DNA of 64,000 bases from the NCBI GenBank assembly GCA_963727525.1, contig CAVSGO010000006.1, positions 46,906-110,905 on the forward strand. Direction: 5' to 3'. Numbering within the stretch: the stretch's first letter is position 1; each line of letters starts with the position of its first letter. The notes under the pieces are model-generated. The model ran no database searches, was not told the DNA's origin, and worked only from the letters and a program-made list of their open reading frames with translations. Position numbers and translations under genes: made by a program. Source of the stretch: an uncultured bacterium. Lineage in GTDB: Bacteria; Krumholzibacteriota; Krumholzibacteriia; LZORAL124-64-63. This document shows positions 44,401-63,878 of this stretch, one piece after another.

Positions 44401-44410
44401 GAGGCCTGCC

Positions 44411-46598: not shown

Positions 46599-46602
46599 CG
46601 CG

Positions 46603-47256: not shown

Positions 47257-47272
47257 AACGCGGAGGTCGATC

Positions 47273-48577
47273 GTGAGCTTGCTCAACCTGTTCAAGACAC
47301 CCGCGGCTCGCGTCCCCCGCGTGGCGCTCGGGTCCACGGCGATCGTCGACCTGCCCGATCCCGACCACGTGGTGATCCCCCTCGAGTATCCCGGTCAGAT
47401 TCGCTTTCGACCCGCGGTCCAGGCCGGAGACTCCGTGGCGCGCGGGCAGGTGATCGGCCGTTCCGAACTGGGCAACTGCGTGCACGCCTCGATCAGCGGG
47501 CTGATCAAGGAGATCCGGACAATCTGGTCGGCTAGTGGCTACCACGTTCCGGCGGTCGTCATCACCCGCGGCGACGCACCCGCGCTCACACCCACCGAGT
47601 GCCTCGGACAGTGCGGGCTCGATCTGGCCTCGGCGACACGCATCGCATTGCTCAAAGCGGGCGGTGTGATTTCCCCGTGGACCACGCCGGGCCAGGACCA
47701 CCGAGAAGCGGACATCGGCGAGTTCCCGGACATCCAGCACATCGTCGTGAAGGGGCTGAACGAGGAGCCCACGATCGTAAATTTCGAGCTGCTCATGGTG
47801 GAGGGAGCCGGCAGGCTGAAGGACGCGTTGCAACGGCTGTGCGATTTCGTGCCCCGCGCCACGATATGGTTGACGGTGGCGCGCCGCCTCGAGCCGTGGG
47901 CGCGCGAGACCTTCGAGGACCTCGTACGCGTGGTGGGCCTCGCCGAGGAGTATCGCCATCGCATCGAGCGGATGGTGGTGCCGCGCGTGACGGGCGTGGC
48001 CATTGCGAATACCGAGGCGTTCCGGTCGCGCGGTGTCGCCGTGCTCTCCGTCGAACACCTGCTGACCGCGGCCGATGCGCTTGCCGGCAAGCCATTCACG
48101 CACAAGACGGCGACGATAGCCGGAGGCCTTCTGCGCGAGCCGGTGACCGTGCGCACACCGGTCGGAACGACGATCGGGACCTTGCTCGCGAGCCAGGGCA
48201 TGAGCGCCGCCGACTACGGTCGTCTGATCGTCGGCGGCCCGATGCGCGGCATGACGCAGTATACCGACGAGACGCCGTTGAGCAAGTTCCAGCACGGCGT
48301 ATTGGTGATGGCAGCGTCCGAGCTGCCGGCGGAGCTGAACCGTACCTGTGTGAACTGCGGCCGCTGCACGCGCGCCTGTCCCGTGCACCTGCAGGTGCAC
48401 CTCATCGGGCGTTGCGTGGAGTACAACCTGCTTGCCGAAGTGCCTTCGCGCCACCCAGAGGCCTGTCACGAGTGCGGGCTCTGCGCCTTCGTCTGTCCGG
48501 CTCATCGGCCCCTGGTGCAGATGATGAAGATCGCCAAGCGTGCGGGCGTGACCGAGACGAGCGAGGCGGTGGCATGA
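47273..48577 (+). CDS. rnfC: Rnf electron-transport complex subunit C
   Basis: GTG 47273 with GGAGG RBS. RnfC_N-like N-terminus, IVGGPMRG, C-terminal 2x[4Fe-4S] (CVNCGRCTRACP, CHECGLCAFVCP). Not evaluated: no canonical GGxGFP FMN/NADH motif was seen by eye. Confidence 0.8.
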   Translation: MSLLNLFKTPAARVPRVALGSTAIVDLPDPDHVVIPLEYPGQIRFRPAVQAGDSVARGQVIGRSELGNCVHASISGLIKEIRTIWSASGYHVPAVVITRGDAPALTPTECLGQCGLDLASATRIALLKAGGVISPWTTPGQDHREADIGEFPDIQHIVVKGLNEEPTIVNFELLMVEGAGRLKDALQRLCDFVPRATIWLTVARRLEPWARETFEDLVRVVGLAEEYRHRIERMVVPRVTGVAIANTEAFRSRGVAVLSVEHLLTAADALAGKPFTHKTATIAGGLLREPVTVRTPVGTTIGTLLASQGMSAADYGRLIVGGPMRGMTQYTDETPLSKFQHGVLVMAASELPAELNRTCVNCGRCTRACPVHLQVHLIGRCVEYNLLAEVPSRHPEACHECGLCAFVCPAHRPLVQMMKIAKRAGVTETSEAVA

Positions 48578-49608
48578 TCCCGACGATCATCGACACGCGG
48601 CCGGCGACCGACCAGGCGCCCAGGAACGATCGCGACGCTCAGCACGACCACAAGCTGAGCGTAGCCGAGGGGCCGCACTGGCACGACGGCAGTTCGCTCA
48701 CGCGGACACAGATTCTCTGGCTTATGGCGCTGCTTCCCGCGGGCGTGGCGAGCGGCGTCATGCTCGGCGCACCGGCGTTGCGGGTGATGGCGCTGGCGGT
48801 CGCGGCCGCGATCGCCTTCGATGCCCTCGCCAACCGCGTGATGTCCCTGCCGGATGCCACCTCGAACGGCAGCAGCATCACTCTCGGCCTGCTGCTCGCC
48901 TTTCTCCTGCCGGTCGACGCGCCGTGGTGGTTGGTGGTCGTGGGCTGTTTCCTGACCATCGTGATCGGCAAGAAGCTCTTCGGTGGCTGGGGCGGCTATC
49001 CCGTGCATCCGGTGGCGCTGAGCTACGCGATGCTCGTCGTGTCGTGGCCAGCGCGGATGGACGTCACGGCGTCGCTCGTGCACGCGACCTGGCGCGCCGC
49101 ACCGGTGGAACCTCTACGGCTCGTCAAGACCCTCGGCGCGGCCGCCGCCGCGCAATACGACCTCCACGACCTCCTGCTCGGCGTGCAGACCGCTGGCGTG
49201 GGCGACGCGATGGTGCTGTGGCTTCTCGCGGGCGGTGTCTTCCTATTCCTCGTCCGGCAGGTGCCCTGGCAGATTCCGATCGGTGTCGTCGCCGGCGTGG
49301 TGCTCTGCGCCTGGCTGCTCGGCATGGCCGACCCCGGGCGCACGGCCACGCCGGCCTTCCAGCTCCTGGCGGGCGGTACGGTGTTCATGGCGTTCTTTCT
49401 GGCGCCGGAGCACACGACATCGCCGGTCAACCCGTGGCCGATGTTCCTCTACGGGTGGTTGGGCGGCGTGTTGCTCGTGCTGATCCGCGCGTTCTCGAGT
49501 CACATCGACGGCACGGTATTCGCCGTGCTGCTGATGAACGTCGCCTGTCCGCTGCTCGACCGCCTGGGGCCCCGGATCGTCGGCCTGGAGGTGCCACGCG
49601 ATGCGTGA
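48574..49608 (+). CDS. rnfD: Rnf complex subunit D (NqrB-like integral membrane subunit)
   Basis: ATG overlaps the rnfC stop (ATGA). Polytopic membrane profile with the conserved GGWGGYPVHPVAL-type segment and the FMN-attachment-region context (TSPVNPWP). Confidence 0.8.
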   Translation: MIPTIIDTRPATDQAPRNDRDAQHDHKLSVAEGPHWHDGSSLTRTQILWLMALLPAGVASGVMLGAPALRVMALAVAAAIAFDALANRVMSLPDATSNGSSITLGLLLAFLLPVDAPWWLVVVGCFLTIVIGKKLFGGWGGYPVHPVALSYAMLVVSWPARMDVTASLVHATWRAAPVEPLRLVKTLGAAAAAQYDLHDLLLGVQTAGVGDAMVLWLLAGGVFLFLVRQVPWQIPIGVVAGVVLCAWLLGMADPGRTATPAFQLLAGGTVFMAFFLAPEHTTSPVNPWPMFLYGWLGGVLLVLIRAFSSHIDGTVFAVLLMNVACPLLDRLGPRIVGLEVPRDA

Positions 49609-50206
49609 AATCGGTCGCCTGGTGCTGGTGCTCGGGCTCATCGGCGTGGTGAGCGCGTCGTCGCTGGCATACGTGCGCACGACCCTCGCTCCCCGGATCG
49701 AGCGGCAGAACGATTTCTACGTGCGCGGGCCGGCGCTCGAACGGCTGTTCCAGCAGCCGGCACGCACTCTCCTGGGCAACAAGGTGACGCTGGATGCGGC
49801 CGGCACCCGCTACCTGATCTTCTTTCGGCGAGTGGACGGCGACGTCACGGGTCTCGCCGTGGAAGCGCCTGGCCACGGCGGCTACGCCGGCGACGTGGTG
49901 ATGATGGTCGGACTCGATCTTGTCACCGAACGGATGCTCGGCGTGGAGATCGTCTCGCACGGCGAGACCCCGGGCGTGGGTGCCCGGATCGAGAGACCGA
50001 CATTCCGCAAGCAGTGGCGAGGCTTGCCGATGGACGACACGCTGAATCTGCGCACTGCGGGCGGCAACATCGACGCGATCAGCGGTGCCACCTTCTCGTC
50101 GCGTGCCATGATCGACGGCACCAACCAGGTCGATGGCCCTGATGCGGGATCACAGGGCCGACATCCTGGCGCGCATAGCCGGGAACTAGACGGAGAGCGG
50201 TCATGA
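49601..50206 (+). CDS. rnfG: Rnf complex subunit G (FMN-binding); last ~20 codons possibly frameshifted
   Basis: N-terminal TM anchor ([19 protein letters not shown]), FMN-binding-domain motif [14 protein letters not shown]. From about nt 50130 the +1 frame reads ...[18 protein letters not shown] (protein-like, RnfG-like C-terminus), whereas the called frame reads [23 protein letters not shown]. Confidence 0.7.
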
Positions 50207-50815
50207 CGTTCAGGCAGGCACTCACTCACGGGTTCTGGCGAGACCTGCCGCCTTTCCGGCTGGTGCTTGGCCTCTGCCCGGCTCTGGCCGTCACCTCGGC
50301 CGCGCCCAACGGGCTGGGCATGGGGTTGGCGGTGACCTTCGTGCTGATCTTCTCCAACATGTTCATCTCGCTGCTGCGCCGGGTGATCCCCGAGCGAGGT
50401 ACGGATCGCCAGCTACATCGTGGTGATCGCCAGCCTCGTGGTGCTCGTGGAACTGGGCATGAAGGCGTTCTTCTTCTCGCTCTCCCAGCAGTTGGGGATC
50501 TACATCCCGCTCATCGTCGTGAACTGCATCCTGCTGGGGCGCGCCGAGGCGTTCGCCTCGCGCAATCCTGTGCTGCTGTCCGTGGCCGACGGGGTGAGCG
50601 TGGGGCTGGGCTACACGGTCTCGCTCACGTTGATGGCGTCGGTGCGCGAGGTCCTGGGCGCCGGCACGTGGTTCGGCCATACAGTGTTCGGACATGGTTT
50701 CGAGCCCTTCGGTTTCATGGTCAGGGCGCCGGGGGCGTTCCTCTGCCTGGGCCTGCTCCTCGGACTGATGAATGCCTGGAGCCGCAAGCGCGGCGAGTTC
50801 TTCGTGCAGACGTGA
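50203..50815 (+). pseudogene. rnfE: Rnf complex subunit E, interrupted by a +1 frameshift at about nt 50392-50404
   Basis: ATG 50203 (GGAGAG RBS): [64 protein letters not shown], then junk in-frame. The conserved continuation (E)[43 protein letters not shown]... is in the next frame (ORF 50420..50815). Removing one G from gagcgaGgtacgg joins them. Confidence 0.8.
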
Positions 50816-50829
50816 CGGGAGACCGTGCC

Positions 50830-51405
50830 ATGAACCTGATTCTGCTGACCGTGAGTGCGATCTTCGTACACAACATCCTGCTGGCGCAATACCTGGGCAA
50901 CTGCCCGTTCTGCGGCGTATCGAAGAGGATCGAAACCGCGACCGGCATGGCGGTGGCCGTGGTATTCGTGACCACTCTGGCGTCGATCTTCACCTGGGGC
51001 ACGTATCACCAGATTCTCGTGCCATTGCACCTGGAGTACCTGCAAACGCTGGTCTTCATCCTGGTGATCGCGGCCCTCGTGCAGTTCGTGGAGATCTTCC
51101 TCAAGAAGAAGAGCCGTTCCCTCTACAACGCGCTCGGGATCTACCTGCCACTGATCACCACGAACTGCGCCGTGCTGGGGATCGCGTTGCTCAATATCAA
51201 GAACAACTTCGGCTTCGTGCACATGGTGGTGTATTCCGCCGCCAGCTCGGCGGGATTCGGCCTTGCCATCGTGCTGTTCGCCGGGGTGCGCGAGCGCCTC
51301 TTCCTGTCGCCGGTGCCGCGGTCCATGCAGGGGACGGCGATCGCCCTCGTCACGGCCGGCATCATGTCGCTCGCGTTCCTGGGGTTCGCGGGCATGGTCG
51401 AGTAG
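50830..51405 (+). CDS. rnfA: Rnf complex subunit A
   Basis: ATG 50830. [27 protein letters not shown]...[19 protein letters not shown] (RnfA/RnfE family signature). Confidence 0.85.
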
Positions 51406-51420
51406 CCACGGAGACGCACC

Positions 51421-53511
51421 ATGTGGATCCCCGCTGTCGTCCTCGGAGGTATCGCCGCGATCGCGGCGGTGGTGCTGGGCATTGCGGCGCGCGTCTTCCA
51501 CGTTCAGGAAGATCCGCGGATCAAGGCCGTCAATGACCTGCTCGCCGGCGCCAACTGCGGGGGCTGCGGCTACGCGGGCTGCGTCGCCTGTGCGGAGGCG
51601 ATCGTCCGCGGCGAGGTGGAGCCCAACGCATGCGTGGTCGGTCAGGCCGATGTGGCGCGCGCCGTCGCCTCGTTTCTGGGCATGGAACTGGCCGACACGG
51701 AGCCGCAGATCGCGTGCCCCGACTGCCAGGGAGGGTTGCGCGCCTCGCGCAAGTACGCCTACGCCGGCTTTGACGACTGCCGCGCTGCTATGCTCTATTT
51801 CCACGGCCCCGTGTCATGCCAGCACGGATGCCTCGGGCTGGGCACCTGCATCCGCGCCTGCAAGTTCGGGGCGATCACGATGGGGCCCGCCGGGTTGCCC
51901 CTCTTCGATCCTACGCGCTGCGTGGCCTGCGGCGCCTGCGCTCGCGCTTGCCCCAAGGGCATCATCTCGATCATTTCCGAGACGACCAAGATCCTGCACT
52001 GGAATCGCTACACCGAATGCCTGGCCCCGTGCCGGCAGAAGTGTCCGGCGCAGATCAACATCCCCAAGTACATCGAGCACCTGAAGCGCGGCGAGTTCGC
52101 CGAGGCGTTGCTGACGATCAAGGAGAGCAACCCGCTACCGCTCTCCACGGGCCGGGTATGCCCCGAGCCGTGTGCCCTGGCCTGCCGGCGACATATCGGC
52201 GACGAACCGGTAGCGATCAACTATCTCAAGCGCTTCGCGGCCGACTGGGAAATGAGCTCGGGGCGCCGCCTGCACATCCCTGTGCTTCCGGATACCGGCC
52301 GGAAGGTCGCGGTGATCGGAGGCGGGCCAGCCGGACTGTCCGCGGCCTACTTCCTGCGCCGCCTCGGCCACGCCGTCACCATCTATGATCAGATGCCGGC
52401 GCTCGGCGGCATGCTGCGCTACGGCATTCCGGAGTACCGTCTTCCCAAGCGTGTTCTCGACTGGGAGATCGAGGGCATCCTGGCACTCGGCATCCAGGCC
52501 GCGACCGGTGTCGCTCTGGGCAAGGACTTCACCATCGATTTCCTGCGCGCCAATGGTCACGACGCGATCTTCCTCGCCGTGGGTGCATGGCGCGACAATG
52601 GCCTTGGCCTCGAGGACGACGGCGTCTCTGGTATCGTGAGCGGCATCGAGTTGCTGCGGCGCATGCAGACGTCCGCGCCGATCCCCTTACGTGGACACGT
52701 GATCGTGATCGGCGGCGGCAACACCGCCATCGATGCCGCGCGCACCGCCCTGCGAGCCGGCGCGAGTCGGGTGAGCATCGTGTATCGCCGTTCGCGCGAC
52801 GAGATGCCGGCGAATCCGGCCGAGATCGTGGCCGCTGACGAGGAGGGCGTGCGATACCGCTTCCTCAGCGCGCCCAACCGCATCGTATCCGACGCCGGCC
52901 ACGTCACCGGGCTCGAGATTCTGCGCATGGAGCTGGGCGAACCCGATCCCAGCGGTCGGCGAAGGCCCGTGGCGATCGCGGGATCGGAAGAGACGATCCC
53001 GTGCGACCTGATCATCGAGGCCGTGGGCCAGATGCCCGACATCGATTTCCTTGCGGTGCCGGGCATGCCGTCGTTGCCGACAACGCGCTGGAACACGATC
53101 GACGCCAGCGAGGACACGCTACAGACCGATGTGCCCTACATCTTCACCGGTGGTGATTGCTTCACGGGACCCTCGCTCATGGTCAACGCGATCGGTGCTG
53201 GTCGGTATGCGGCACGATCGATCCACTATTACGTGACCGAGGGCAGGATTCCGCCAATCGAGCACCGACAGACCGAACTCATCAGCGACTCGCTCTACGA
53301 GTCCATCGCGGGTGTGGCACCCCGCCCTCGGGTGCACGAGCCCGTCGTGACGCTGCAGGACCGCCTCGGCACTTTCAATGAGGTCGAGGGCACGATCGAC
53401 GAAGAGGATGCCCTCTACGAGGCCGCGCGTTGCCTGCATTGCGGCACCTACTGCTATGACCACGATCTGGAGCAGGAACGTCTGCGGCAGGAGACCGAGC
53501 AGCCGGCGTGA
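51421..53511 (+). CDS. rnfB: RnfB (N-terminal membrane anchor + Fe-S/ferredoxin domains) fused to a GltD/NfnB-like NAD(P)H-dependent FAD oxidoreductase (696 aa)
   Basis: GGAGA RBS. MWIPAVVLGGIAAIAAVVLGIAA, NCGGCGYAGC (RnfB cluster), two 4Fe-4S ferredoxin motifs (CIRACKFGAI / CVACGACARACP); then KVAVIGGGPAGLSAAYFL (FAD GxGxxG) ... VIVIGGGNTAIDAARTA (NAD(P) GxGxxA) ... TGGDC as in glutamate-synthase small-subunit-like flavoproteins. Confidence 0.8.
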   Translation: MWIPAVVLGGIAAIAAVVLGIAARVFHVQEDPRIKAVNDLLAGANCGGCGYAGCVACAEAIVRGEVEPNACVVGQADVARAVASFLGMELADTEPQIACPDCQGGLRASRKYAYAGFDDCRAAMLYFHGPVSCQHGCLGLGTCIRACKFGAITMGPAGLPLFDPTRCVACGACARACPKGIISIISETTKILHWNRYTECLAPCRQKCPAQINIPKYIEHLKRGEFAEALLTIKESNPLPLSTGRVCPEPCALACRRHIGDEPVAINYLKRFAADWEMSSGRRLHIPVLPDTGRKVAVIGGGPAGLSAAYFLRRLGHAVTIYDQMPALGGMLRYGIPEYRLPKRVLDWEIEGILALGIQAATGVALGKDFTIDFLRANGHDAIFLAVGAWRDNGLGLEDDGVSGIVSGIELLRRMQTSAPIPLRGHVIVIGGGNTAIDAARTALRAGASRVSIVYRRSRDEMPANPAEIVAADEEGVRYRFLSAPNRIVSDAGHVTGLEILRMELGEPDPSGRRRPVAIAGSEETIPCDLIIEAVGQMPDIDFLAVPGMPSLPTTRWNTIDASEDTLQTDVPYIFTGGDCFTGPSLMVNAIGAGRYAARSIHYYVTEGRIPPIEHRQTELISDSLYESIAGVAPRPRVHEPVVTLQDRLGTFNEVEGTIDEEDALYEAARCLHCGTYCYDHDLEQERLRQETEQPA

Positions 53512-57078: not shown

Positions 57079-57229
57079 GCCGTTCCTCCGGATTTCGGTC
57101 GAGATTCCGTCAATACGACGATCGTCAAGTCAGATATTTATACAGGATATTACTCGTCATGTATGGCGCCAGGCAAGTTTTTGACCGGTGGCGGGAAGAT
57201 CTTGCCCGATCACGATCAGAACACGCCAT

Positions 57230-57247
57230 TGCGACGTGCGACGCACG
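57230..57247. promoter_or_regulatory. Tandem TGCGACG TGCGACG overlapping the perfect palindrome CGTGCG-a-CGCACG, ~190 bp upstream of the sigma-54-type promoter; enhancer (UAS) candidate
   Basis: Seen directly within the 410-bp AT-rich intergenic island 57079-57488. Confidence 0.3.
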
Positions 57248-57423
57248 ATCTCTCCCCGTCCTGGTCGGCACAATTCGAGGAGCGAGTAGAGCGCGAAACC
57301 TCTACCTGTATTACGAAACGGAAAAAGACGACTTTGGTCATGATAACTGATTGCAATATCGCTCGTTACAGCAATATTTTCTCAGTAATTTCTTCATTTT
57401 CTTCTTTCTCCGAGCGATACTAT

Positions 57424-57439
57424 TGGTGTACGTTTTGCA
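57424..57439 (+). promoter_or_regulatory. Sigma-54-type promoter TGGTGTacgttTTGCA (GG 57425-57426, GC 57437-57438, 10-nt spacing) ~50 nt upstream of the decahaem cytochrome gene
   Basis: Matches TGGCAC-N5-TTGCA at the TGG, spacing and TTGCA elements. A/T-tract between it and the upstream repeats (possible IHF bend). Direct repeats CAACACCT x2 (57439-57470) in the leader. Confidence 0.5.
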
Positions 57440-57488
57440 ACACCTGTCAGCGTATCAACACCTTGATGACCCTGTTCAAGGAGACGGC

Positions 57489-58457
57489 ATGCGCACGAAC
57501 GGCGGATCACCAACCTTCCACGTGATGGCCTTGGCCACGTGCACGGTGCTCTGCCTGGGCCTGATCGCCCTCCTTCCCGGAGTGGCAACGGCCCAGGACG
57601 CGATGCGAACGACCGAGACCTGCCTCGGATGCCACGACGGTCAGGCCGCGAACCTGGTGGGGAGTCCTCACCAGATCACGGCACTGACGGACGCGGCCGG
57701 GGCACGCATTGCTTGCACCGACTGTCACAAGGGCCCTGCCAGCCACTGGGAGGACGACCCCGAATCGAATCCAATGGGCAATCCGGCCACGGTCTCGGCC
57801 GATGCGGCGGCGAAGCTTTGCGCCGGTTGCCACGTCAACCCTCACCAGCAATCGATGATGACCGGCGATCCGCACAACACCGCCGGCGTGTCCTGCACGA
57901 GCTGCCACCAGGTGCATGGTGGAGCGAACCGCGCCGATCTGCTGAAGCAGCCGGAGCCCGGTCTCTGCTACAGCTGCCATGGCGCCGTGCAGGGGCAATT
58001 CGCGCAGCCGTCGCGTCATCCCGTCGCCGATGGGGTCATGACGTGCAGCGACTGCCACCTCAAGTCTGCGGACGCGCGCGGTGCGCTCACATGGTCGGGC
58101 ACCAACGCGATGTGCGTGAGCTGCCACGACCAGTTCCAGGGACCGTTTCCCTTCGAGCACCAGGCAACCATGGACTTCTCCACGGAAGAGGGCGGATGTC
58201 TGAGCTGTCACGACCCGCACGGATCGGCCCTGCCGCGTCTGCTCAAGCAGCCGTACGAGTCGCCTCACTACAACCTCTGTACCCAGTGCCACGCGGTTCC
58301 CAAGCACAACTTCAATCAGGAGCACGGCACCGCCTGGGCGGGCGTGGCCTGCACAGAGTGTCACGTCGACGTTCACGGATCCTACGAGAACCGGCTGTTC
58401 CTGACGCCGGCTCTGCGGGCTCAGGGCTGTTCCGCCGTGGGCTGCCACCATTTCTAG
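57489..58457 (+). CDS. Periplasmic decahaem c-type cytochrome (MtrA/OmaB-like size and haem density) (322 aa)
   Basis: ATG 57489 with AGGAGA RBS. Signal peptide MALATCTVLCLGLIALLPGVATAQDA. Ten CxxCH (CLGCH, CTDCH, CAGCH, CTSCH, CYSCH, CSDCH, CVSCH, CLSCH, CTQCH, CTECH) plus a terminal CSAVGCH (Cx4CH). Confidence 0.85.
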   Translation: MRTNGGSPTFHVMALATCTVLCLGLIALLPGVATAQDAMRTTETCLGCHDGQAANLVGSPHQITALTDAAGARIACTDCHKGPASHWEDDPESNPMGNPATVSADAAAKLCAGCHVNPHQQSMMTGDPHNTAGVSCTSCHQVHGGANRADLLKQPEPGLCYSCHGAVQGQFAQPSRHPVADGVMTCSDCHLKSADARGALTWSGTNAMCVSCHDQFQGPFPFEHQATMDFSTEEGGCLSCHDPHGSALPRLLKQPYESPHYNLCTQCHAVPKHNFNQEHGTAWAGVACTECHVDVHGSYENRLFLTPALRAQGCSAVGCHHF

Positions 58458-58469
58458 AAGGGGCGACCA

Positions 58470-60038
58470 ATGCGACGATCGACTGCGACGACAACCTGTC
58501 TGGCTCTGTTGCTGGGCCTGTTGTACGCGGCGCCCGTCCACTGCGCGACGCTGAATGGAACGCTCACGCTCGGAAACATCAGTCTGGACGAGGATGCCGG
58601 CGATCTGTCCGCGATGCAGGAGACGTACAACATCCACGACGGATTCTCCGTCTCGCAGATCCTGCTCAACGGCCAGCTCAGCGACCGGAACATGTTCCAG
58701 CTCGACCTGCGTGAGATCAACCTGGACAGCCGCAAGGGGCTCTTCACCTACCGGCTGGCCGACGTCGGCGACGTGACGGTGCGCTATGACCAGCATCGGC
58801 AGCTCTTCGATGCCGATGGTGCCGTCAGTTCCGAGCGCAAGGATCTGCGCATCGGAGCCAGGGCGGCCATGACACCGTGGCTGCGCGTGTCGGGCAACTA
58901 CAATCACCAGACGCGCGCGGGCGACCGACTGGGCTATCCAGCCGGCAACATCGGCTGGCTGGGCAACGGCTACGACTACACGCTGCAGACCGGCCGCGTG
59001 GAGGCCGAGGTGCATGACCACGTCCGCGGTCTGGCCGTGGGCTACGAGATGTCGGACTATGCCGACACTGAGCACAACGGTACCGACCGCCAGGGCCATG
59101 TGGTCTCGGTGCGTGGTCACATGCCCTGCCTGTTCTTGCCCGATCACGTGTCGCACTACGTGCGCGCGGCGTTCGGCCAGCAGGAACTGGTGGGCAGCGG
59201 CCTGCAGTACGACATGGCGTCATTCCAGTACGTGGGCGTGGTCAAGCCGGTGGATCAGTTCAAGTTCAAGTACGACCTGTACCTGAGCCGCGTGGACGAC
59301 GACGCCACCGATCTGAAGACGGACGACATCCGCAACAACTTCGACCTGACCTACTTCTTCAAGTACGGCCAGGTCTTCGGTGGTTATAGCTACGTGACTG
59401 CCGACGACGACCGCACCCTCACCAGCTCCAATGTCTGGCGTGTGGGAGCGGCGGGCGGCTATCACCATGCGATCCGCGCCAAGGTGAGCTACGCCACGTC
59501 GGACAAGACCGACACCGAGCAGCTCACCTTGCTCAAGGACGTGGAGCAGGACCGTTTCCGGGCGAGCCTGCAGTCGCAACCGGTTGAGAATCTGACGGTC
59601 GGCGCGTCCTATGCCGACCGCACGCGGGAGTTCCCTGTCATCAACGTGAAGGCCACCGGCAAGCAGGTGAGCACCTTCGCGCGGGTGACGGTGCCCGGCT
59701 GGGGCGGCTTCGGTGCCGACTACACCTATAGCCGTGACGAGTATGACGACCTGGTGGCGGGATACGACGCCGAGAGCAACGTCGTGACCGGCCGTGTCGA
59801 CGTGGATTACATCAAGAATCTGCGTCTGTCCGCCGCCGTGTCCTATCTGGATATCGGAAAGGACCTCGATATCGAGAAGTCGATCCTCTCCTTCGAGGGG
59901 CGTTACAACCTGCTCGACGACTATCACATCGAGGTCAAGTACAACGTCTACAACTACGACGACTACATCCTGCTGGACCGCTACTACACGGCCAACGTCG
60001 TGTGGGTGAACATCGGTTACGATTTCTCGGTGGAGTAG
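58470..60038 (+). CDS. Predicted outer-membrane beta-barrel protein (porin-like, MtrB/OmbB-type role inferred from context) (522 aa)
   Basis: AAGGGG RBS. Signal peptide MRRSTATTTCLALLLGLLYAAPVHCA. Long series of amphipathic Y/D/T-rich beta-strand-like segments (VSVRGHM, KFKYDLYLSRV, DLTYFFKYGQVFGGYSYVT, KVSYATSD, HIEVKYNVYNY, ANVVWVNIGYDFSVE). Confidence 0.65.
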   Translation: MRRSTATTTCLALLLGLLYAAPVHCATLNGTLTLGNISLDEDAGDLSAMQETYNIHDGFSVSQILLNGQLSDRNMFQLDLREINLDSRKGLFTYRLADVGDVTVRYDQHRQLFDADGAVSSERKDLRIGARAAMTPWLRVSGNYNHQTRAGDRLGYPAGNIGWLGNGYDYTLQTGRVEAEVHDHVRGLAVGYEMSDYADTEHNGTDRQGHVVSVRGHMPCLFLPDHVSHYVRAAFGQQELVGSGLQYDMASFQYVGVVKPVDQFKFKYDLYLSRVDDDATDLKTDDIRNNFDLTYFFKYGQVFGGYSYVTADDDRTLTSSNVWRVGAAGGYHHAIRAKVSYATSDKTDTEQLTLLKDVEQDRFRASLQSQPVENLTVGASYADRTREFPVINVKATGKQVSTFARVTVPGWGGFGADYTYSRDEYDDLVAGYDAESNVVTGRVDVDYIKNLRLSAAVSYLDIGKDLDIEKSILSFEGRYNLLDDYHIEVKYNVYNYDDYILLDRYYTANVVWVNIGYDFSVE

Positions 60039-60075
60039 CATTCGCGTTCTCGAGTACGAGGCAAGGAGGAAGACA

Positions 60076-61101
60076 ATGTCCGCTCTCAGGAATCTCAGTC
60101 TAATCACGATCGTGCTACTGCTCCTGGTCGGTGTGACCGCATGCGACCGCACGATCACCCGTGTCGAGCAGGTGGCGGATCAGCCCAGCAGCTGCTTCAA
60201 CTGCCATGGCGACGACAACACCGCGCTCATCTCGGCCCAGCTGGCATGGGAGAACTCGCGCCACGCGAGCGGCCTCAATACCAACCGGGCCACGGCCGAC
60301 TGCTCCGGTTGCCATACCGGCGACGGCTTCATCGCGCGCGCCGAAGGGAACATCCCCGAGGCCTACGACAACCCGTCGGTCATCCATTGCTTCACCTGCC
60401 ACGCGCCGCACAGCAACGGCGACTTCGGTCTGCGCTGGACGGAAATGGCCACGCTCGAGGACGGCACCACGTTCGATCTCCACGCTGGCAACCTCTGCGT
60501 GGCTTGCCACCATGCGCGCGACGACGTCAACACCTTCGTGCGCACGGGCGGCGACGTGACGATCAGCAGCACCCACTGGGGTCCGCACCATGGCCCGCAG
60601 GGCGACATGCTGCTGGGCTCCAACGGCTACGAGTACGACAGCTACGGCTACGAGCAGACGCCATACCACCGCACCCTCACCCAGGACGGCTGCGTGGACT
60701 GCCACTTCAAGACCACGCGCAACTTCGTGGTGGGCGGCCACTCGTTCAACATGGAGGCCGATCTCGAGGGCTCCACGGTGCGCAACACCGCGGCCTGCGC
60801 GGCGTGCCACACCGGCCTCAGCGATTTCAACTACAACTCCGTGCAGGACAGCGTGGCCACCATGCTGACGACGCTGGAGACTTCGCTCGAGGATGCGGGC
60901 CTGTTCACCAGTGGCCACCCGGTCGCACAGACCGTGGCCGAGGCCGACGCGGGCGCCATGTGGAACTACCTGCTGGTCGAGGAAGACCGCAGCATGGGCG
61001 TTCACAACTCGAAGTACATCATCGGACTTCTTGACTCTTCCATTCAATATTTGGCGGACAAGAAGTCGGTTGCACCGCTGGCTCTGGTTGACCAAGATTA
61101 G
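60076..61101 (+). CDS. Lipoprotein hexahaem c-type cytochrome (341 aa)
   Basis: AAGGAGGA RBS. Lipoprotein signal LLLLVGVTAC. Six CxxCH (CFNCH, CSGCH, CFTCH, CVACH, CVDCH, CAACH). Confidence 0.85.
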   Translation: MSALRNLSLITIVLLLLVGVTACDRTITRVEQVADQPSSCFNCHGDDNTALISAQLAWENSRHASGLNTNRATADCSGCHTGDGFIARAEGNIPEAYDNPSVIHCFTCHAPHSNGDFGLRWTEMATLEDGTTFDLHAGNLCVACHHARDDVNTFVRTGGDVTISSTHWGPHHGPQGDMLLGSNGYEYDSYGYEQTPYHRTLTQDGCVDCHFKTTRNFVVGGHSFNMEADLEGSTVRNTAACAACHTGLSDFNYNSVQDSVATMLTTLETSLEDAGLFTSGHPVAQTVAEADAGAMWNYLLVEEDRSMGVHNSKYIIGLLDSSIQYLADKKSVAPLALVDQD

Positions 61102-61145
61102 ACCAGACCAGTAGGACTGCGCGAGCAGCATACTCGCTGAATCAC

Positions 61146-61180
61146 ACACGGGCGGGGACGGTCTCCGCCCGTGTTTTCTG
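61146..61180 (+). terminator. Rho-independent terminator: ACACGGGCGG-ggacggtct-CCGCCCGTGT followed by TTTTCTG
   Basis: 10-bp GC-rich perfect stem and T-run, 45 nt after the hexahaem cytochrome stop and 13 nt before the next gene's RBS. Confidence 0.7.
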
Positions 61181-61192
61181 AGAGGGATCACC

Positions 61193-63814
61193 GTGAACTT
61201 GAGAGCTTCACTGCGTGCGCTGGCCGTGTTTATTCTCGCCGCGACACTGTCCAGCATCACCTCTCTCTCCTCGGCGTACGCCGACAACGACACGTGCTTC
61301 ATGTGCCACGACGATGCGTCGCTCAAGAGCGAGTCGGGCAAGTCCGTCGGCGTTCTGGCGAAGTTGTTCGATGCGAGTGTTCACGCCGGCCTGGAGTGCA
61401 CCGACTGCCACACGCAGGACGCGAACTTCGATGACGTGCCGCATTTCTCGCGTTACCAGCCGGTCAATTGCGCGATGTGCCACGAGGACGCGGCGCACAG
61501 CTTCGGATTGAATTTTCACGCCAAGGCGGCTACCCAGGGCAACACCAATGCTCCGAACTGCAAGGACTGCCACGGCGTCGACGGCAATCCCCACGCGATG
61601 CGCGCCCTTACCGCGCGCACGGCGGAGTCGGCGTGCCGACGGTGCCACGCTTCGGAAGCCAAGATCTATGACACCGGTGTGCATGCGATCGCCGACAAGG
61701 GTGGTCGCGAGAGGGCCGGATGCGTGACCTGCCACCAGTCGCACGGCCCGGGTCTGCCGCCCTCGTCCGGCGCCGTGAACGGCCTCTGCGAGAAGTGCCA
61801 CAAGGGCGCCATGGAGGACGTCCAGCGCGGTGGCCACGTGGCCATTGGCGAGGGACTCAACCAGACGCTGAACTGCGCTTCGTGCCACGACGTGCATGGC
61901 ACGCACAAGCCGCACCTGTCCGCGCGCGTGGCCCAGGCGTGCGTCACCTGCCACCAGAAGGAACGCGATGCCTTCATAGGGTCGGTACACGAGACGCTCA
62001 TCGCCGGCGGCACGATGCATTGCCTTTCCTGTCACAGCACGCACAAGGACGAGGCGGCGGCGCGGCAGTACGACGCGGGCTGCGGCAGTTGCCACGGCGA
62101 CGTGGAAAAGATCTACCGCGGTAGCGTGCACCGTTTCGGCCGCTTGCGCGGCGATGACGGTGCCGCGACGTGTGCCAACTGTCACCACGGACACCATATC
62201 CTCCCGGCGACCGATCCGGCGTCGCCGACGAATCGCTTGAACATTCCCAGCACCTGCGGCGAATGCCACACCGATGAGAGCATCGTCACCAAGGACTTCG
62301 TGCGTCTGCCGATCACGCTGCCAAACTACATGAACTCGGTGCACGGCAAGGGGCTCGTGGCGGGCAAACCCACCGCGACCTGCACCGACTGCCATGGCAC
62401 GCACGACCTGCAGACCGCCCAGGATCCGAATTCGAAGATCAATCGGTTCCACATCGCGCAGACGTGCAGCAAGTGCCACGCGGATATCGCGGAGAAATAC
62501 GAGAACTCGATCCACGGCAAGGCTGTGCAGGTGGGTATCGAGGATTCGCCGACCTGCATCGATTGCCACGACGAGCACCTGATCAAGGACGTCAAGGACC
62601 CCACCGCGCGGCAGAATCCAGAGAACATCGCGCGCGAGCTGTGCGGTGACTGCCACAACAACTCGGACATGGTGTCGAAGTACGGCATCGCCGCGGGCGT
62701 CGTGAGCAGCTATCTCGACAGCTACCACGGGTGGGCGATCAGCCGCGGGGGAACCCTCGTGGCCACCTGCGTCGATTGCCACACGACCCACGAGATCCGG
62801 GCCCCGCAGGATCCCGAGTCGTCGGTCTTCGTGGACAACGTGACAAAAACGTGCGGCAAGTGCCACGCGAATGCCAACGAGACGTTTTCCCGCTCTTACA
62901 CGCACGCGGGCGCGCTAGCGGCGCGCGGGCCGCACGGCTGGGCGAAGCTGATCTACCTCATCCTGATCGCCGTGGTGCTTGGCGGCATGGCGCTGCACAA
63001 CTTCGTGATCGCGCGCTTCGAGATCATCAAGCACCGCGTGCGCCGGCGCCGGGAGGCGTACGTCGTGCGCTGGCAGCGCGTGGAGCGCGTGCAGCACCTG
63101 ATCCTGCTCACGTCGTTCTTCGGCCTGGCCATCACCGGCTTCGCGCTGCGCATGCACGACGCCTGGTGGGTCAAGGTGATCGGCCTCGGTGGCTCCGAGT
63201 CGGTGCGCGCCAACCTGCACCGCGCGCTGGCCGTGATCCTCACCGGAGCAGCGTTCTTCCACCTGTGGTGGATCATCGCCACCCGGCGCGGTCGTTACGC
63301 CGTCAAGGAGATGGCGCCCGGCGCGCACGACATCGTGCACTTCATCAAGAACATGGGCTTCCACCTGGGCTTCACGTCCGAGCGACCGAAGTTCCGACGG
63401 TTCGATTACACGCAGAAGGCGGAGTACTGGGCGGTCGTCTGGGGCACCATGGTCATGGCTCTCACCGGGCTCGTGCTGTGGTTCCCCGTGCTGGTGACCA
63501 CCTGGACGCCCGCCTGGGTGGTGCGCGTGGCCGAGGTGGTGCACTACTACGAGGCCATCCTCGCGGTCTCGGCCATCATCATCTGGCACTTCTTCTACGT
63601 CATCTTCATGCCATCGGAGTACCCGGTGAGCACCGTGTGGCTCGACGGCCGCATGCCGGAGCACGACTGGAAGGAATTCCACGCGGCCGAGCACGAGACC
63701 GACGGCGACGCAGTGGTGCAGCAGCCCGGGCCCAGCACCGATCTGCCCGGCATCGCGGTGTTCGTGCCCAAGGCGTTGCGCAGCAAGCGTCCTCCCGACC
63801 CGAAACACGGGTGA
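61193..63814 (+). CDS. Fusion of a 19-haem periplasmic c-type cytochrome domain with a C-terminal membrane dihaem cytochrome b (FdnI/HydC-like); CbcL-like inner-membrane quinol:cytochrome oxidoreductase candidate (873 aa)
   Basis: GTG 61193 with GAGAGGGA RBS. Signal peptide. 19 CxxCH motifs (CFMCH ... CGKCH). Then four TM helices with conserved Arg/His (VVRWQRVERVQHLILLTSFFGLAITGFALRMHD..., HRALAVILTGAAFFHLWW..., EYWAVVWGTMVMALTGLVLWF..., HYYEAILAVSAIIIWHFFYVIF), as in cytochrome b subunits of formate dehydrogenase / NiFe hydrogenase. Confidence 0.85.
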   Translation: MNLRASLRALAVFILAATLSSITSLSSAYADNDTCFMCHDDASLKSESGKSVGVLAKLFDASVHAGLECTDCHTQDANFDDVPHFSRYQPVNCAMCHEDAAHSFGLNFHAKAATQGNTNAPNCKDCHGVDGNPHAMRALTARTAESACRRCHASEAKIYDTGVHAIADKGGRERAGCVTCHQSHGPGLPPSSGAVNGLCEKCHKGAMEDVQRGGHVAIGEGLNQTLNCASCHDVHGTHKPHLSARVAQACVTCHQKERDAFIGSVHETLIAGGTMHCLSCHSTHKDEAAARQYDAGCGSCHGDVEKIYRGSVHRFGRLRGDDGAATCANCHHGHHILPATDPASPTNRLNIPSTCGECHTDESIVTKDFVRLPITLPNYMNSVHGKGLVAGKPTATCTDCHGTHDLQTAQDPNSKINRFHIAQTCSKCHADIAEKYENSIHGKAVQVGIEDSPTCIDCHDEHLIKDVKDPTARQNPENIARELCGDCHNNSDMVSKYGIAAGVVSSYLDSYHGWAISRGGTLVATCVDCHTTHEIRAPQDPESSVFVDNVTKTCGKCHANANETFSRSYTHAGALAARGPHGWAKLIYLILIAVVLGGMALHNFVIARFEIIKHRVRRRREAYVVRWQRVERVQHLILLTSFFGLAITGFALRMHDAWWVKVIGLGGSESVRANLHRALAVILTGAAFFHLWWIIATRRGRYAVKEMAPGAHDIVHFIKNMGFHLGFTSERPKFRRFDYTQKAEYWAVVWGTMVMALTGLVLWFPVLVTTWTPAWVVRVAEVVHYYEAILAVSAIIIWHFFYVIFMPSEYPVSTVWLDGRMPEHDWKEFHAAEHETDGDAVVQQPGPSTDLPGIAVFVPKALRSKRPPDPKHG

Positions 63815-63842: not shown

Positions 63843-63878
63843 TGAGGCCCCGGAGATCCTTACCGGGGCCTCTTGATA
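63843..63878 (+). terminator. Rho-independent terminator: GAGGCCCCGG-agatccttac-CCGGGGCCTC followed by TTGATATTCC
   Basis: 10-bp perfect GC stem 29 nt after the stop of the 873-aa cytochrome gene, with a T-rich tail. Confidence 0.6.

What the first reader, a model, noticed from the sequence alone, without database searches (positions are those of the whole stretch)
57424..63814. Complete porin-cytochrome-type extracellular electron transfer module, including a 19-haem cytochrome c/b fusion, behind a sigma-54-type promoter
Four consecutive co-directional genes follow a 410-bp AT-rich regulatory island. They encode a signal-peptide decahaem cytochrome (10 CxxCH in 322 aa, MtrA/OmaB-like density), a 522-aa predicted outer-membrane beta-barrel, a lipoprotein hexahaem cytochrome, and an 873-aa protein with 19 CxxCH fused to a 4-TM dihaem cytochrome b. 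Start spacings are 13-38 nt with strong RBSs, and an intrinsic terminator separates only the last gene. This content and order (periplasmic multihaem, then OM porin, then surface lipoprotein cytochrome) is the logic of Mtr/Pio/Geobacter Omb-Oma-Omc conduits, here with its own inner-membrane CbcL-like quinol-oxidising module. This is based on established knowledge of those systems, and homology was not computed. In a high-GC lineage rich in FlgD-Ig/T9SS-like secreted proteins such a conduit would be undescribed. The beta-barrel lacks the CxxC of MtrB and ends in ...DFSVE rather than an aromatic residue, so it may be a new porin family.
Basis: partly seen in the sequence, partly recalled or inferred. 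Interest (0 to 1): 0.85.

Follow-up and report, generated by a model that had tools for sequence, protein, structure and literature searches.

The report
Compact Mtr-type outer-membrane electron conduit
Three adjacent genes in this probable Krumholzibacteria genome encode a slimmed-down version of the known Mtr system that carries electrons across the bacterial outer membrane, topped by a six-haem surface cytochrome of a type known from Gram-positive iron reducers, with a 19-haem inner-membrane cytochrome gene next door.

Summary
Four co-directional genes lie at 57489-63814: a 10-CxxCH cytochrome, a 522-aa barrel, a 6-CxxCH lipoprotein and a 19-CxxCH cytochrome fused to a cytochrome b.

- **g1** is an MtrA/DmsE-family decahaem (E 5e-24 to MtrA, 6R2Q_A).
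- **g2** has no Pfam or NCBIfam hit. Its AlphaFold model is a 26-strand barrel whose best PDB match is MtrB (E 8e-18, TM 0.77). It is a compact, sequence-divergent MtrB-fold sheath, not a new fold.

The g1-g2-g3 order is conserved in every evaluable one of 41 loci from Krumholzibacteria, Eisenbacteria and Latescibacteria MAGs.

The 19-haem c/b fusion follows a strong terminator hairpin. It lies near the triad in only about 5 of those loci, so the "complete module" is a local juxtaposition.

The sigma-54 motif exists but is neither enriched nor broadly conserved in relatives.

Verdict: a new variant of a known kind, unannotated and apparently undescribed in these phyla. The direction of electron flow is undetermined.

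The parts
57079..57488 (.). AT-rich divergent intergenic region between the GSDH/FlgD_ig gene (- strand) and g1
   Evidence: GC about 0.51-0.53 against about 0.65 in the flanks. Sequence read.
57424..57439 (+). Sigma-54-like -24/-12 motif TGGTGTACGTTTTGCA (candidate only)
   Evidence: Correct GG-N10-GC spacing and a full TTGCA, 65 nt before the ATG. It matches 8 of 12 consensus positions. The same score occurs in 18% of random 300-nt pieces of related loci, and the motif is not conserved upstream of 33 of 34 g1 homologues.
57489..58457 (+). g1: periplasmic MtrA/DmsE-family decahaem cytochrome c (322 aa)
   Evidence: 10 CxxCH. TIGR03508 170.9 bits over model positions 2-257 of 258, below the cutoff of 192.2. 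phmmer E 5.2e-24 to MtrA chain 6r2q_A over 260 aa. Signal peptide seen by inspection.
58470..60038 (+). g2: compact 26-strand MtrB-fold outer-membrane barrel (522 aa)
   Evidence: AF2 mean pLDDT 85.3 with 26 strands. Foldseek top hit MtrB 6r2q_B, E 8.2e-18, TMq 0.77; the next hits have E >= 6.6e-8 and TM <= 0.5. No Pfam or NCBIfam hit itself. 8 of 30 homologues hit PF11854.
60076..61101 (+). g3: hexahaem lipoprotein cytochrome of the OcwA/NrfA-like fold (341 aa), putative surface terminal cytochrome
61146..61179 (+). Intrinsic-terminator-like hairpin (13-bp stem, 3-nt loop) plus TTTTCT, between g3 and g4
   Evidence: Sequence. Fold -39.4 kcal/mol for the 101-nt gap, z = -2.8.
61193..63814 (+). 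g4: inner-membrane 19-haem cytochrome c fused to an FdnI/HydC-type cytochrome b (873 aa), putative quinol:cytochrome c oxidoreductase
   Evidence: 19 CxxCH, all invariant in 22 homologues. PF01292 E 7.6e-14 and TIGR01583 E 1e-12 at residues 624-805. Signal peptide plus 5 TM segments.
63844..63872 (+). G+C-rich hairpin after g4 (10-bp stem) with a weak T tail, the likely end of the transcription unit
   Evidence: z = -3.77.

Best explanation
g1-g2-g3 encode a three-part electron conduit of the Mtr type that crosses the outer membrane.

**Proposed mechanism (inferred)**
- The decahaem g1 is exported by Sec and threaded through the lumen of the 26-strand barrel g2. This gives an insulated chain of ten bis-His haems across the outer membrane.
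- On the outer face, g1 contacts the six-haem lipoprotein g3. g3 has the fold of the surface terminal reductases OcwA and the Carboxydothermus S-layer cytochrome, and it exchanges electrons with extracellular Fe(III)/Mn(IV) minerals, humic material or partner cells.
- g4 is transcribed largely on its own, behind a terminator. It is an inner-membrane quinol:cytochrome c oxidoreductase. An FdnI/HydC-type cytochrome b in the membrane oxidises or reduces the quinone pool. A 19-haem periplasmic arm carries the electrons toward g1, or toward other periplasmic partners.
- Net flow is most likely outward, that is, respiration of extracellular acceptors. The direction is not determined by sequence.

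**What is shown:** gene content, haem motifs, homology of g1 to MtrA, the fold of g2 and g3, and synteny of the triad.

**What is inferred:** assembly of g1 inside g2, surface exposure of g3, coupling of g4 to g1, the substrate and the direction.
For: - g1: 10 CxxCH and a full-length DmsE-family match. E 5.2e-24 to MtrA of the solved Mtr complex.
- g2: high-confidence 26-strand barrel, the strand number of MtrB (PMC7198977). MtrB is the top PDB match by ten orders of magnitude over 22-strand TonB receptors and 26-strand LptD. 8 of 30 family members hit PF11854 MtrB_PioB, best E 3.1e-7.
- Synteny: the decahaem-barrel-hexahaem order holds in every locus where the contig allows it, across 41 loci from Krumholzibacteria, Eisenbacteria, Latescibacteria and FCB-group MAGs at 34-68% identity.
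- Operon structure: 12- and 37-nt gaps with RBSs point to one operon for g1-g3.
- g4: signal peptide, 19 invariant CxxCH, then TM helices carrying invariant His 635, 676, 784 and 799 in an FdnI-like domain. g4 homologues sit next to the triad in L001 and L011, with shorter 13-haem versions in L030 and L036.
Against: - No experiment and no complex model was available. The insertion of g1 into g2 is by analogy only.
- g1 scores below the TIGR03508 trusted cutoff. It lacks the MtrA residues Trp204 and Gln206 that contact the MtrB cap helix.
- g2 has no significant sequence match to MtrB.
- Surface exposure of g3 is unproven. This copy has Asp at +2 after the lipid-modified Cys, which means inner-membrane retention in E. 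coli. That position varies (D/T/E/S) in the family.
- g4 is separated by a strong hairpin plus T-run. It is not linked to the triad in the closest relatives. Elsewhere it is paired with an NrfA-like gene, a c554-like cytochrome or a Rieske/cytochrome b pair.
- Direction of flow is open. MtoA and PioA, of Fe(II) oxidisers, belong to the same decahaem family.
Confidence: 0.72

Rival explanations
1. The same conduit runs inward. It would be an electron-uptake or Fe(II)-oxidation system like MtoAB/PioAB. It would take electrons from extracellular Fe(II), minerals or partner cells and pass them to periplasmic carriers, g4 and the respiratory chain.
For: - MtoA and PioA are DmsE-family decahaems with 26-strand partners, like g1 and g2.
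- Krumholzibacteria MAGs have been proposed to be iron oxidisers on other grounds: Cyc2 and oxygen reductases (PMC7914226; PMC9769843).
- L002 carries a cytochrome bd-type oxidase 4 kb upstream.
- Mtr conduits are reversible in principle (established knowledge).
Against: - The MtoAB and PioAB clusters carry no outer lipoprotein multihaem cytochrome. Their listed partners are MtoD/CymA and the HiPIP PioC (PMC10654088). Here g3 is invariably present.
- The nearest structural relatives of g3 are surface cytochromes of iron reducers.
- No monohaem MtoD or HiPIP PioC-type partner lies in the operon.
Confidence: 0.25
2. g4 is not part of the module. It would be a general-purpose quinol dehydrogenase with a long haem arm that serves several periplasmic reductases and merely lies next to the triad in this genome.
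For: - A terminator hairpin plus T-run lies between g3 and g4.
- There is no g4 homologue within 8-10 kb of the triad in the two closest relatives or in about 30 of 35 loci with flanks.
- The nearest g4 relative (71%, L042) sits at the syntenic GSDH/FlgD_ig site, but behind an NrfA-like gene instead of g1-g3.
- In L043 and L044 its only cytochrome neighbour is a c554-like cytochrome of about 190 aa.
- The family occurs at about 50% identity in records named Calditrichaeota, Brocadiae and Deltaproteobacteria.
Against: - Homologues or paralogues of g4 sit beside the triad, or beside a second Mtr-like pair, in L001, L002, L011, L030 and L036. That is more than expected for an unrelated gene.
- A conduit needs some quinol-oxidising partner, and none other is encoded nearby in the window.
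Confidence: 0.4
3. g3 faces the periplasm, anchored to the inner or outer membrane. It would act as a tethered periplasmic shuttle between g4 and g1. The conduit would then end at the exposed terminal haem of g1, as in MtoAB/PioAB.
For: - Asp at +2 after the lipobox Cys in this copy.
- No secretion-system gene in the operon.
- The fold relatives NrfA and the octahaem nitrite reductase are periplasmic enzymes (established knowledge).
Against: - The +2 residue is not conserved (D/T/E/S), and the Asp rule is an enterobacterial one (established knowledge).
- The gene order periplasmic cytochrome, barrel, lipoprotein cytochrome parallels the Geobacter porin-cytochrome clusters (established knowledge; the OmbB-OmaB-OmcB complex is described in PMC12307469).
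- The top structural matches are the cell-surface cytochromes OcwA and 6qvm, ahead of NrfA.
Confidence: 0.15
4. g3 is a catalytic reductase for a soluble substrate such as nitrite, hydroxylamine or sulfite. g1 and g2 would feed it in the way DmsEF feeds the extracellular DMSO reductase.
For: - 9 of 33 homologues hit PF02335 Cytochrom_C552.
- An NrfA-like gene occupies the equivalent place in L042.
Against: - g3 has no CxxCK or other atypical haem motif.
- Each of its six CxxCH is matched by one further conserved His (H63, H112, H171, H198, H222, H310). That fits all-bis-His haems with no open coordination site.
- It is only about two thirds the size of NrfA and covers only the C-terminal part.
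Confidence: 0.07

Closest known systems
MtrCAB of Shewanella (PDB 6R2Q), with its relatives MtrDEF and DmsEF
   Same: - A periplasmic decahaem of about 320 aa homologous to MtrA (E 5e-24).
- A 26-strand barrel whose model superposes on MtrB (TM 0.77). It has a short helix in the loop between strands 1 and 2, and short strands 2-4, as described for MtrB.
- A third, lipid-anchored multihaem cytochrome is encoded in the same cluster.
   Different: - The barrel is 522 aa against 649 residues in the 6r2q_B chain. It is about 13% identical, has no N-terminal CxxC and no significant HMM match.
- The lipoprotein has 6 haems and an OcwA/NrfA-like fold, not the 10-haem MtrC.
- Gene order is A-B-lipoprotein rather than mtrC-A-B.
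- MtrA Trp204 and Gln206 are not conserved.
- No CymA-type NapC/NirT quinol dehydrogenase. A 19-haem c/b fusion lies nearby instead.
MtoAB (Sideroxydans) and PioAB (Rhodopseudomonas) Fe(II)-oxidation conduits
   Same: A DmsE-family decahaem plus a 26-strand MtrB-type barrel encoded side by side. No MtrC-type decahaem.
   Different: Those clusters have no outer lipoprotein multihaem cytochrome. Their partners are MtoD/CymA or the HiPIP PioC. PioB and MtoB belong to PF11854, which g2 does not hit.
OcwA of Thermincola potens (6I5B) and the S-layer undecahaem cytochrome of Carboxydothermus ferrireducens (6QVM)
   Different: g3 has 6 haems (OcwA has nine by established knowledge; the 6QVM entry is titled undecahaem). 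It matches only their C-terminal part. It is a lipoprotein of a diderm and is encoded with an MtrAB-type sheath.
Geobacter porin-cytochrome clusters (OmaB-OmbB-OmcB, ExtABCD)
   Same: The same logic and gene order: periplasmic multihaem, then porin, then lipoprotein multihaem (established knowledge; the complexes are described in PMC12307469).
   Different: No detected homology. g1 is a DmsE/MtrA-type decahaem and g2 an MtrB-fold 26-strand barrel. The best Geobacter-related hit is the GSU2203 decahaem family for g1, at 164.5 bits, below the cutoff of 325.
CbcL of Geobacter sulfurreducens
   Same: One polypeptide that joins a periplasmic multihaem c domain to a membrane dihaem b domain, proposed to oxidise menaquinol for extracellular electron transfer (PMC9129911).
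   Different: CbcL has 9 c haems and six TM helices. g4 has 19 CxxCH, 5 predicted TM helices and 7 invariant His in the C-terminal membrane-domain region.
Mtr-like porin-MHC clusters of Acidobacteriota and Verrucomicrobiota (bioRxiv 10.64898/2026.05.27.727921)
   Same: Sequence-divergent, syntenic porin plus multihaem-cytochrome clusters in uncultured phyla, with MtrA-like and OcwA-like predicted cytochromes.
   Different: Different phyla. That study reports no homologues at 50% identity or above outside its clades. Whether any of its four architectures equals this triad was not tested.

Membership tests
MtrA/DmsE/MtoA/PioA decahaem cytochromes (TIGR03508) | Ten CxxCH motifs in a Sec-exported protein of about 300-350 aa | tested here: met
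   10 CxxCH in 322 aa. Signal peptide with ATA-QD.
MtrA/DmsE/MtoA/PioA decahaem cytochromes (TIGR03508) | Family HMM score at or above the curated cutoff | tested here: not met
   170.9 bits against a cutoff of 192.2, although the match covers model positions 2-257 of 258.
MtrA/DmsE/MtoA/PioA decahaem cytochromes (TIGR03508) | Detectable homology to the solved MtrA | tested here: met
   phmmer E 5.2e-24 to 6r2q_A, residues 40-299 against 62-324, with the CxxCH motifs of the aligned stretch in register.
MtrA/DmsE/MtoA/PioA decahaem cytochromes (TIGR03508) | Encoded next to its barrel partner | tested here: met
   12-nt gap to g2. Conserved in all evaluable loci.
MtrB/PioB outer-membrane sheath (PF11854) | Pfam PF11854 match | tested here: not met
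   No hit for g2 even at E <= 1. 8 of 30 homologues match, best E 3.1e-7. hhalign against one 609-aa PF11854 protein was inconclusive, probability 2%.
MtrB/PioB outer-membrane sheath (PF11854) | 26 antiparallel beta-strands | tested here: met
   AF2 model, pLDDT 85.3, 26 strands. MtrB has 26 (PMC7198977).
MtrB/PioB outer-membrane sheath (PF11854) | Fold closest to MtrB rather than to other large barrels | tested here: met
   6r2q_B E 8.2e-18, TMq 0.77. The next best are TonB-dependent receptors and LptD, at E >= 6.6e-8 and TM <= 0.5.
MtrB/PioB outer-membrane sheath (PF11854) | Canonical length (about 650-800 aa) and, in metal-reducing Gammaproteobacteria, an N-terminal CxxC | tested here: not met
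   522 aa. All full-length family members among the 150 best hits from 1.84 billion representatives are 504-557 aa. No CxxC. The role of the CxxC is recalled from the literature and was not checked here.
MtrB/PioB outer-membrane sheath (PF11854) | The decahaem sits inside the barrel lumen | not testable with these tools
   No multimer prediction was available.
MtrC/OmcA/MtrF surface decahaem lipoproteins | Ten haems in a four-domain staggered-cross fold | tested here: not met
MtrC/OmcA/MtrF surface decahaem lipoproteins | Lipoprotein signal peptide | tested here: met
   VTAC lipobox. The Cys is invariant in 37 homologues.
OcwA / NrfA-like multihaem cytochromes | Sequence-profile and fold similarity to OcwA (6I5B) | tested here: met
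OcwA / NrfA-like multihaem cytochromes | Nine haems (OcwA), or a catalytic CxxCK or five-coordinate haem (NrfA) | tested here: not met
   Six CxxCH, no CxxCK. Six further conserved His fit all-bis-His ligation.
CbcL-type c/b fusion quinol oxidoreductases | A periplasmic multihaem c domain fused to an FdnI/HydC-type dihaem cytochrome b | tested here: met
   19 CxxCH plus PF01292 (E 7.6e-14) and TIGR01583 (E 1e-12). Invariant His 635, 676, 784 and 799.
CbcL-type c/b fusion quinol oxidoreductases | Nine c haems and six TM helices (PMC9129911) | tested here: not met
   19 CxxCH. 5 hydrophobic segments after the c domain.
CbcL-type c/b fusion quinol oxidoreductases | Sequence homology to GSU0274 beyond the shared domains | not tested
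   No CbcL sequence or model was available in the libraries used.
Sigma-54-dependent promoter | GG at -24 and GC at -12 with the consensus TGGCAC-N5-TTGCW | tested here: inconclusive
   TGGTGT-N5-TTGCA, 8 of 12 positions. Scores this high occur in 18% of random 300-nt pieces of related loci and upstream of 21% of homologous genes. Four related loci share AGG-N9-TTGCT at -86 to -93.
Sigma-54-dependent promoter | A cognate enhancer-binding protein nearby | tested here: not met
   The nearest PF00158 gene is 44330-45976, 11.5 kb upstream and next to the cytochrome-rnf operon. L042 does have one beside the syntenic GSDH gene.

The most novel reading that the evidence does not exclude
The triad would define a widespread, so far unrecognised class of minimal Mtr conduit in the FCB-group candidate phyla Krumholzibacteria, Eisenbacteria and Latescibacteria. 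In it an MtrAB-type sheathed decahaem wire has recruited an OcwA-type surface cytochrome instead of MtrC. OcwA is the fold used by Gram-positive iron reducers. In this organism the conduit would be fed directly by a membrane-anchored 19-haem wire long enough to bridge much of the periplasm without soluble shuttles. It would also sit 4 kb from an rnf operon led by its own multihaem cytochrome. These abundant, uncultured, supposedly heterotrophic lineages would then be overlooked players in extracellular electron transfer. HMM-based surveys (FeGenie-type tools, MtrCAB searches) would miss them because the barrel escapes PF11854 and there is no MtrC.
Probability: 0.35. Interest if true: 0.65.

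Novelty: new variant of a known kind. Interest (0 to 1): 0.5.

Why it matters
Mtr-type conduits are the best understood route for moving respiratory electrons across a bacterial outer membrane. They are also the main chassis for bioelectronic engineering.

- A systematic survey that required MtrC, MtrA and MtrB together found them in only three phyla (PMC8805035).
- The family described here is common in soil, sediment and wastewater metagenomes. It counts 181 clusters at 50% identity and hundreds of 90% clusters. It is annotated only as "hypothetical protein".
- It lies in phyla with no cultured iron or electrode respirers that I could find.
- It offers a natural minimal design: a barrel about 125 residues shorter than the solved MtrB chain, and a six-haem cap.
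- It also suggests that sheath and surface cytochrome are interchangeable modules drawn from different lineages.
- If functional, it changes which organisms should be counted in environmental iron, manganese and humic electron budgets.

It is an extension of a known mechanism, not a new one.

Tried and rejected
- **Contig look-up.** Looking up the window's own contig through the exact sequence of g2 (and P0001) found no record. I could not see what follows g4 beyond the window end.
- **Barrel against PDB by sequence.** A sequence-profile search of the barrel family found nothing. hhalign against a single 609-aa PF11854 protein was inconclusive. The link to MtrB therefore rests on fold and on weak Pfam hits in 8 of 30 relatives.
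- **Terminator scan.** The consensus terminator scan reported nothing on the + strand. The g3-g4 hairpin was found by reading and folding the gap.
- **Structure prediction input.** I rebuilt the alignment from database hits.
- **Sigma-54 motif.** Neither a strict nor a scored search upstream of 34 g1 homologues showed enrichment over background.
- **Rejected: g2 as a new fold or a soluble protein.** The model is a confident closed barrel.
- **Rejected: g3 as an MtrC half-molecule.** The PF22113 hit is modest, and similar hits appear in g4, which is not an MtrC-type surface cytochrome.
- **Rejected: the four genes as one conserved operon.**
- **Literature.** Searches combining these phyla with porin-cytochrome, MtrA/MtrB or multihaem terms found only reports of OmcS- and Cyc2-type hits or haem-motif counts, not this module.

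Full report
**1. Observation**

The region 57351-63814 carries four co-directional + strand ORFs.

| Gene | Coordinates | Size | Features (unless noted) |
|---|---|---|---|
| g1 | 57489-58457, counted from the internal ATG | 322 aa | 10 CxxCH |
| g2 | 58470-60038 | 522 aa | no CxxCH, 3 Cys, no CxxC |
| g3 | 60076-61101 | 341 aa | 6 CxxCH |
| g4 | 61193-63814, GTG start | 873 aa | 19 CxxCH |

The only other ORF in the 64-kb window with two or more CxxCH is an 8-motif ORF at 46477-47256.

- **N-termini.** g1 ends its signal peptide with ATA-QD. g2 has a hydrophobic leader. g3 has the lipobox VTAC. g4 has AYA-DN.
- **Gaps.** They are 12, 37 and 91 nt, each start preceded by a purine-rich RBS.
- **Upstream region.** The 410-bp region drops to about 0.51-0.53 GC, against about 0.65 around it. 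It is a divergent intergenic region. The neighbour on the - strand is a glucose/sorbosone dehydrogenase with a FlgD_ig tail.
- **Hairpins.** The g3-g4 gap holds a 13-bp G+C-rich hairpin (61146-61174) followed by TTTTCT. The consensus scan missed it. Another strong hairpin follows g4.
- **Sigma-54 string.** TGGTGTACGTTTTGCA is at 57424-57439.

The description is therefore accurate. The one correction is that the b-type part has five hydrophobic segments after the c domain, one linker plus four, rather than four.

**2. The individual proteins**

**g1.** It matches the DmsE-family decahaem model over its whole length. The score is 170.9 bits, just under the cutoff of 192.2. It also matches MtrA of the solved Mtr complex at E 5.2e-24, with the haem motifs of the aligned stretch in register. 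The MtrA residues Trp204 and Gln206, which contact the MtrB cap helix, are Asp and Val in g1.

**g2.** It has no Pfam or NCBIfam match.
- With an alignment of 30 homologues, AlphaFold2 gives mean pLDDT 85.3 and 26 beta-strands. That is the strand number of MtrB.
- Foldseek against the PDB puts MtrB (6r2q_B) first at E 8.2e-18 and TMq 0.77. TonB-dependent receptors and the 26-strand LptD follow at E >= 6.6e-8 and TM <= 0.5. The similarity is therefore specific and not just "a big barrel".
- At the sequence level the link is thin. 8 of 30 homologues hit PF11854, best E 3.1e-7. A profile search of the PDB found nothing. hhalign against one 609-aa PF11854 protein was inconclusive.
- An exhaustive HMMER profile search of 1.84 billion representatives found 181 relatives. 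All full-length ones among the 150 best listed are 504-557 aa.

g2 thus belongs to a tight, compact, sequence-distinct family with the MtrB fold.

**g3.** It is a lipoprotein in every one of 37 homologues. The Cys is invariant and followed by a conserved x-R-x-[IV]-T-x-V-E stretch.
- Besides the six CxxCH, there are six further invariant or near-invariant His (63, 112, 171, 198, 222, 310). This fits six bis-His haems.
- A profile search of the PDB finds OcwA of Thermincola (6i5b, E 6.8e-13), the S-layer undecahaem cytochrome of Carboxydothermus (6qvm, 2e-10), and then NrfA enzymes.

g3 is therefore an OcwA/NrfA-type cytochrome, not an MtrC-type one.

**g4.** It combines 19 CxxCH with a PF01292/TIGR01583 FdnI-type cytochrome b at residues 624-805.
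- In 22 homologues at 45-70% identity, all 19 motifs are invariant. So are His 602, 635, 676, 690, 784, 799 and 830.
- The family is widespread, with 933 hits. Records are named Krumholzibacteria, Latescibacterota, Calditrichaeota, Brocadiae and Deltaproteobacteria. They are annotated only generically.

**3. Context in relatives**

The barrel family was found in 39 genome loci, plus others from metagenomes. Most come from MAGs named Candidatus Krumholzibacteria, Eisenbacteria or Latescibacteria. The best matches (63-68%) are Krumholzibacteria or unnamed, so the window is probably from that phylum.

In every locus where the contig extends far enough, a 10-CxxCH ORF of about 320 aa precedes the barrel. 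A 6-CxxCH lipoprotein ORF of about 340-365 aa follows it. The exceptions are contig ends and two frameshifted assemblies.

The c/b fusion behaves differently.
- A close homologue lies within 10 kb only in L001 and L011, where it is upstream. A 13-haem version lies on the other strand in L030 and L036. Paralogues at about 30% identity occur in L001, L002 and L030.
- The two closest relatives of the triad have a TPR/PMT_2 gene, or the contig end, after g3. They have a TonB-dependent receptor or a ferritin gene before g1.
- The closest relative of g4 (71%, L042) lies at the same GSDH/FlgD_ig site. There it follows an NrfA-like gene rather than a triad and precedes a c554-like cytochrome.
- In L001 it heads a Rieske/cytochrome b cluster.

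The triad is therefore the conserved unit. g4 is a frequent but facultative neighbour.

**4. Promoter claim**

- The motif has the right GG-N10-GC spacing and a perfect TTGCA, but only TGG of the -24 hexamer.
- The strict pattern occurs five times in the window on both strands. The other four do not lie in the region upstream of g1.
- A score of 8 of 12 or better occurs in 18% of random 300-nt pieces of related loci, and upstream of 21% of g1 homologues.
- Four mutually related loci share AGG-N9-TTGCT at -86 to -93. This could be a real clade-specific sigma-54 promoter or just shared ancestry.
- The nearest enhancer-binding protein gene is 11.5 kb away.

The claim is possible but unproven.

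**5. Mechanism**

The best-supported reading is an Mtr-type conduit. g1 is threaded through g2, and g3 is the outer cytochrome. g1-g3 are expressed as one operon that ends at the hairpin.

g4 is a plausible inner-membrane quinol:cytochrome c oxidoreductase. It is analogous in architecture to CbcL, which has nine c haems and six TM helices. Its 19-haem arm could reach far into the periplasm, since 20 haems span 185 Å in MtrCAB. That step is inference.

An outward direction is favoured by the invariable presence of a lipoprotein cytochrome and by its kinship to surface cytochromes of iron reducers. The MtoAB and PioAB clusters, as described, have no such component. Sequence cannot settle this.

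**6. Comparison and novelty**

- A survey requiring MtrC, MtrA and MtrB found the system in three phyla only.
- Papers on Krumholzibacteria report OmcS- and Cyc2-type hits or counts of haem motifs, not this module.
- A 2026 preprint describes analogous divergent porin-multihaem clusters, with MtrA-like and OcwA-like models, in Acidobacteriota and Verrucomicrobiota. The general phenomenon is therefore being recognised.

I rate this a new variant of a known kind. It has the MtrAB core, a compact barrel family invisible to PF11854, and an OcwA-type hexahaem cap, in FCB-group candidate phyla. Interest is moderate (0.5). The mechanism is familiar. The family is abundant, unannotated and easily testable, and it would widen the list of organisms credited with extracellular electron transfer.

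Noticed in passing
window 44330-53511 (+): A sigma-54 activator gene (44330-45976) is followed by an 8-CxxCH cytochrome ORF (46477/46603-47256). Directly after that comes an rnf operon: RnfC 47273-48577, RnfD within 47599-49608, RnfG 49601-50206, a double-length Rnf-Nqr membrane subunit (two PF02508 matches) at 50203-51405, and an RnfB-like FeS protein fused to a Pyr_redox_2 domain at 51421-53511. A multihaem cytochrome gene next to an rnf operon recalls, from my own knowledge, the MmcA cytochrome of Methanosarcina acetivorans (PMC6703419; title and abstract seen only). It may be a second route feeding electrons to the periplasm, 4 kb from the conduit.
   Followed up: partly
window 61193-63814, residues 586-830 of g4: The C-terminal membrane-domain region of the c/b fusion has seven invariant His (602, 635, 676, 690, 784, 799, 830) across 22 homologues. 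A FdnI-type dihaem b needs four. His602 sits in the extra linker helix and His690 in TM2, both toward the cytoplasmic side. They could bind a third haem or form a quinone site.
   Followed up: no
L042 8288-13190 (GCA_016277765.1): The closest relative of g4 (71%) lies at the same GSDH/FlgD_ig neighbour as in the window. There it follows a 496-aa NrfA-like (PF02335) gene and has no triad. It precedes a 185-aa c554-like cytochrome, and a sigma-54 activator lies just upstream. The site looks like a hot spot where different terminal modules are swapped in front of the same c/b fusion.
   Followed up: partly
L043/L044 12656-13237; L001 12955-13545; L042 12633-13190: A c554-like multihaem cytochrome of about 190 aa recurs immediately downstream of g4 homologues. 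In L001 it lies downstream of the triad. The window ends 186 nt after g4, so whether it follows here is unknown.
   Followed up: no
L018 6192-8729; L023 5553-8753; L039 2365-5526: In several Eisenbacteria genomes a giant cytochrome ORF with 35-42 CxxCH motifs (845-1066 aa) lies upstream of the triad.
   Followed up: no
L002 16533-21563: The same genome (GCA_975963955.1) carries, 5 kb from the compact triad, a second pair. It consists of a 328-aa decahaem and a 609-aa barrel that does pass PF11854 (33.5 bits against a cutoff of 23). A 121-aa ORF and another c/b fusion follow. Compact and canonical-type sheaths therefore coexist.
   Followed up: partly
L040 11363-13420: In an FCB-group MAG the most divergent barrel (25% identity) is followed by a 685-aa, 14-CxxCH protein. 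Its C-terminal part is homologous to g3. The cap cytochrome can therefore be extended by extra haem domains.
   Followed up: no
window 60142-60174 (g3 residues 23-33) and alignment A2: The residues after the lipid-modified Cys are unusually conserved (C-x-R-x-[IV]-T-x-V-E, with Arg25 invariant). This may be a sorting signal or a strand that docks on the barrel. AF2 confidence is low there.
   Followed up: no
L045 4374-6764; contig of P0002 (GCA_036704725.1) 1380-1931: In the two closest relatives the gene just upstream of the triad is iron-related: a TonB-dependent receptor in one and ferritin in the other. This is an anecdotal hint of a link to iron.
   Followed up: no
window 58470-60038, C-terminus: The barrel family ends ...G-Y-x-F-S-x-x. 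The usual terminal aromatic residue of the OMP beta-signal sits four residues from the end. This is a family trait rather than a peculiarity of this copy.
   Followed up: partly
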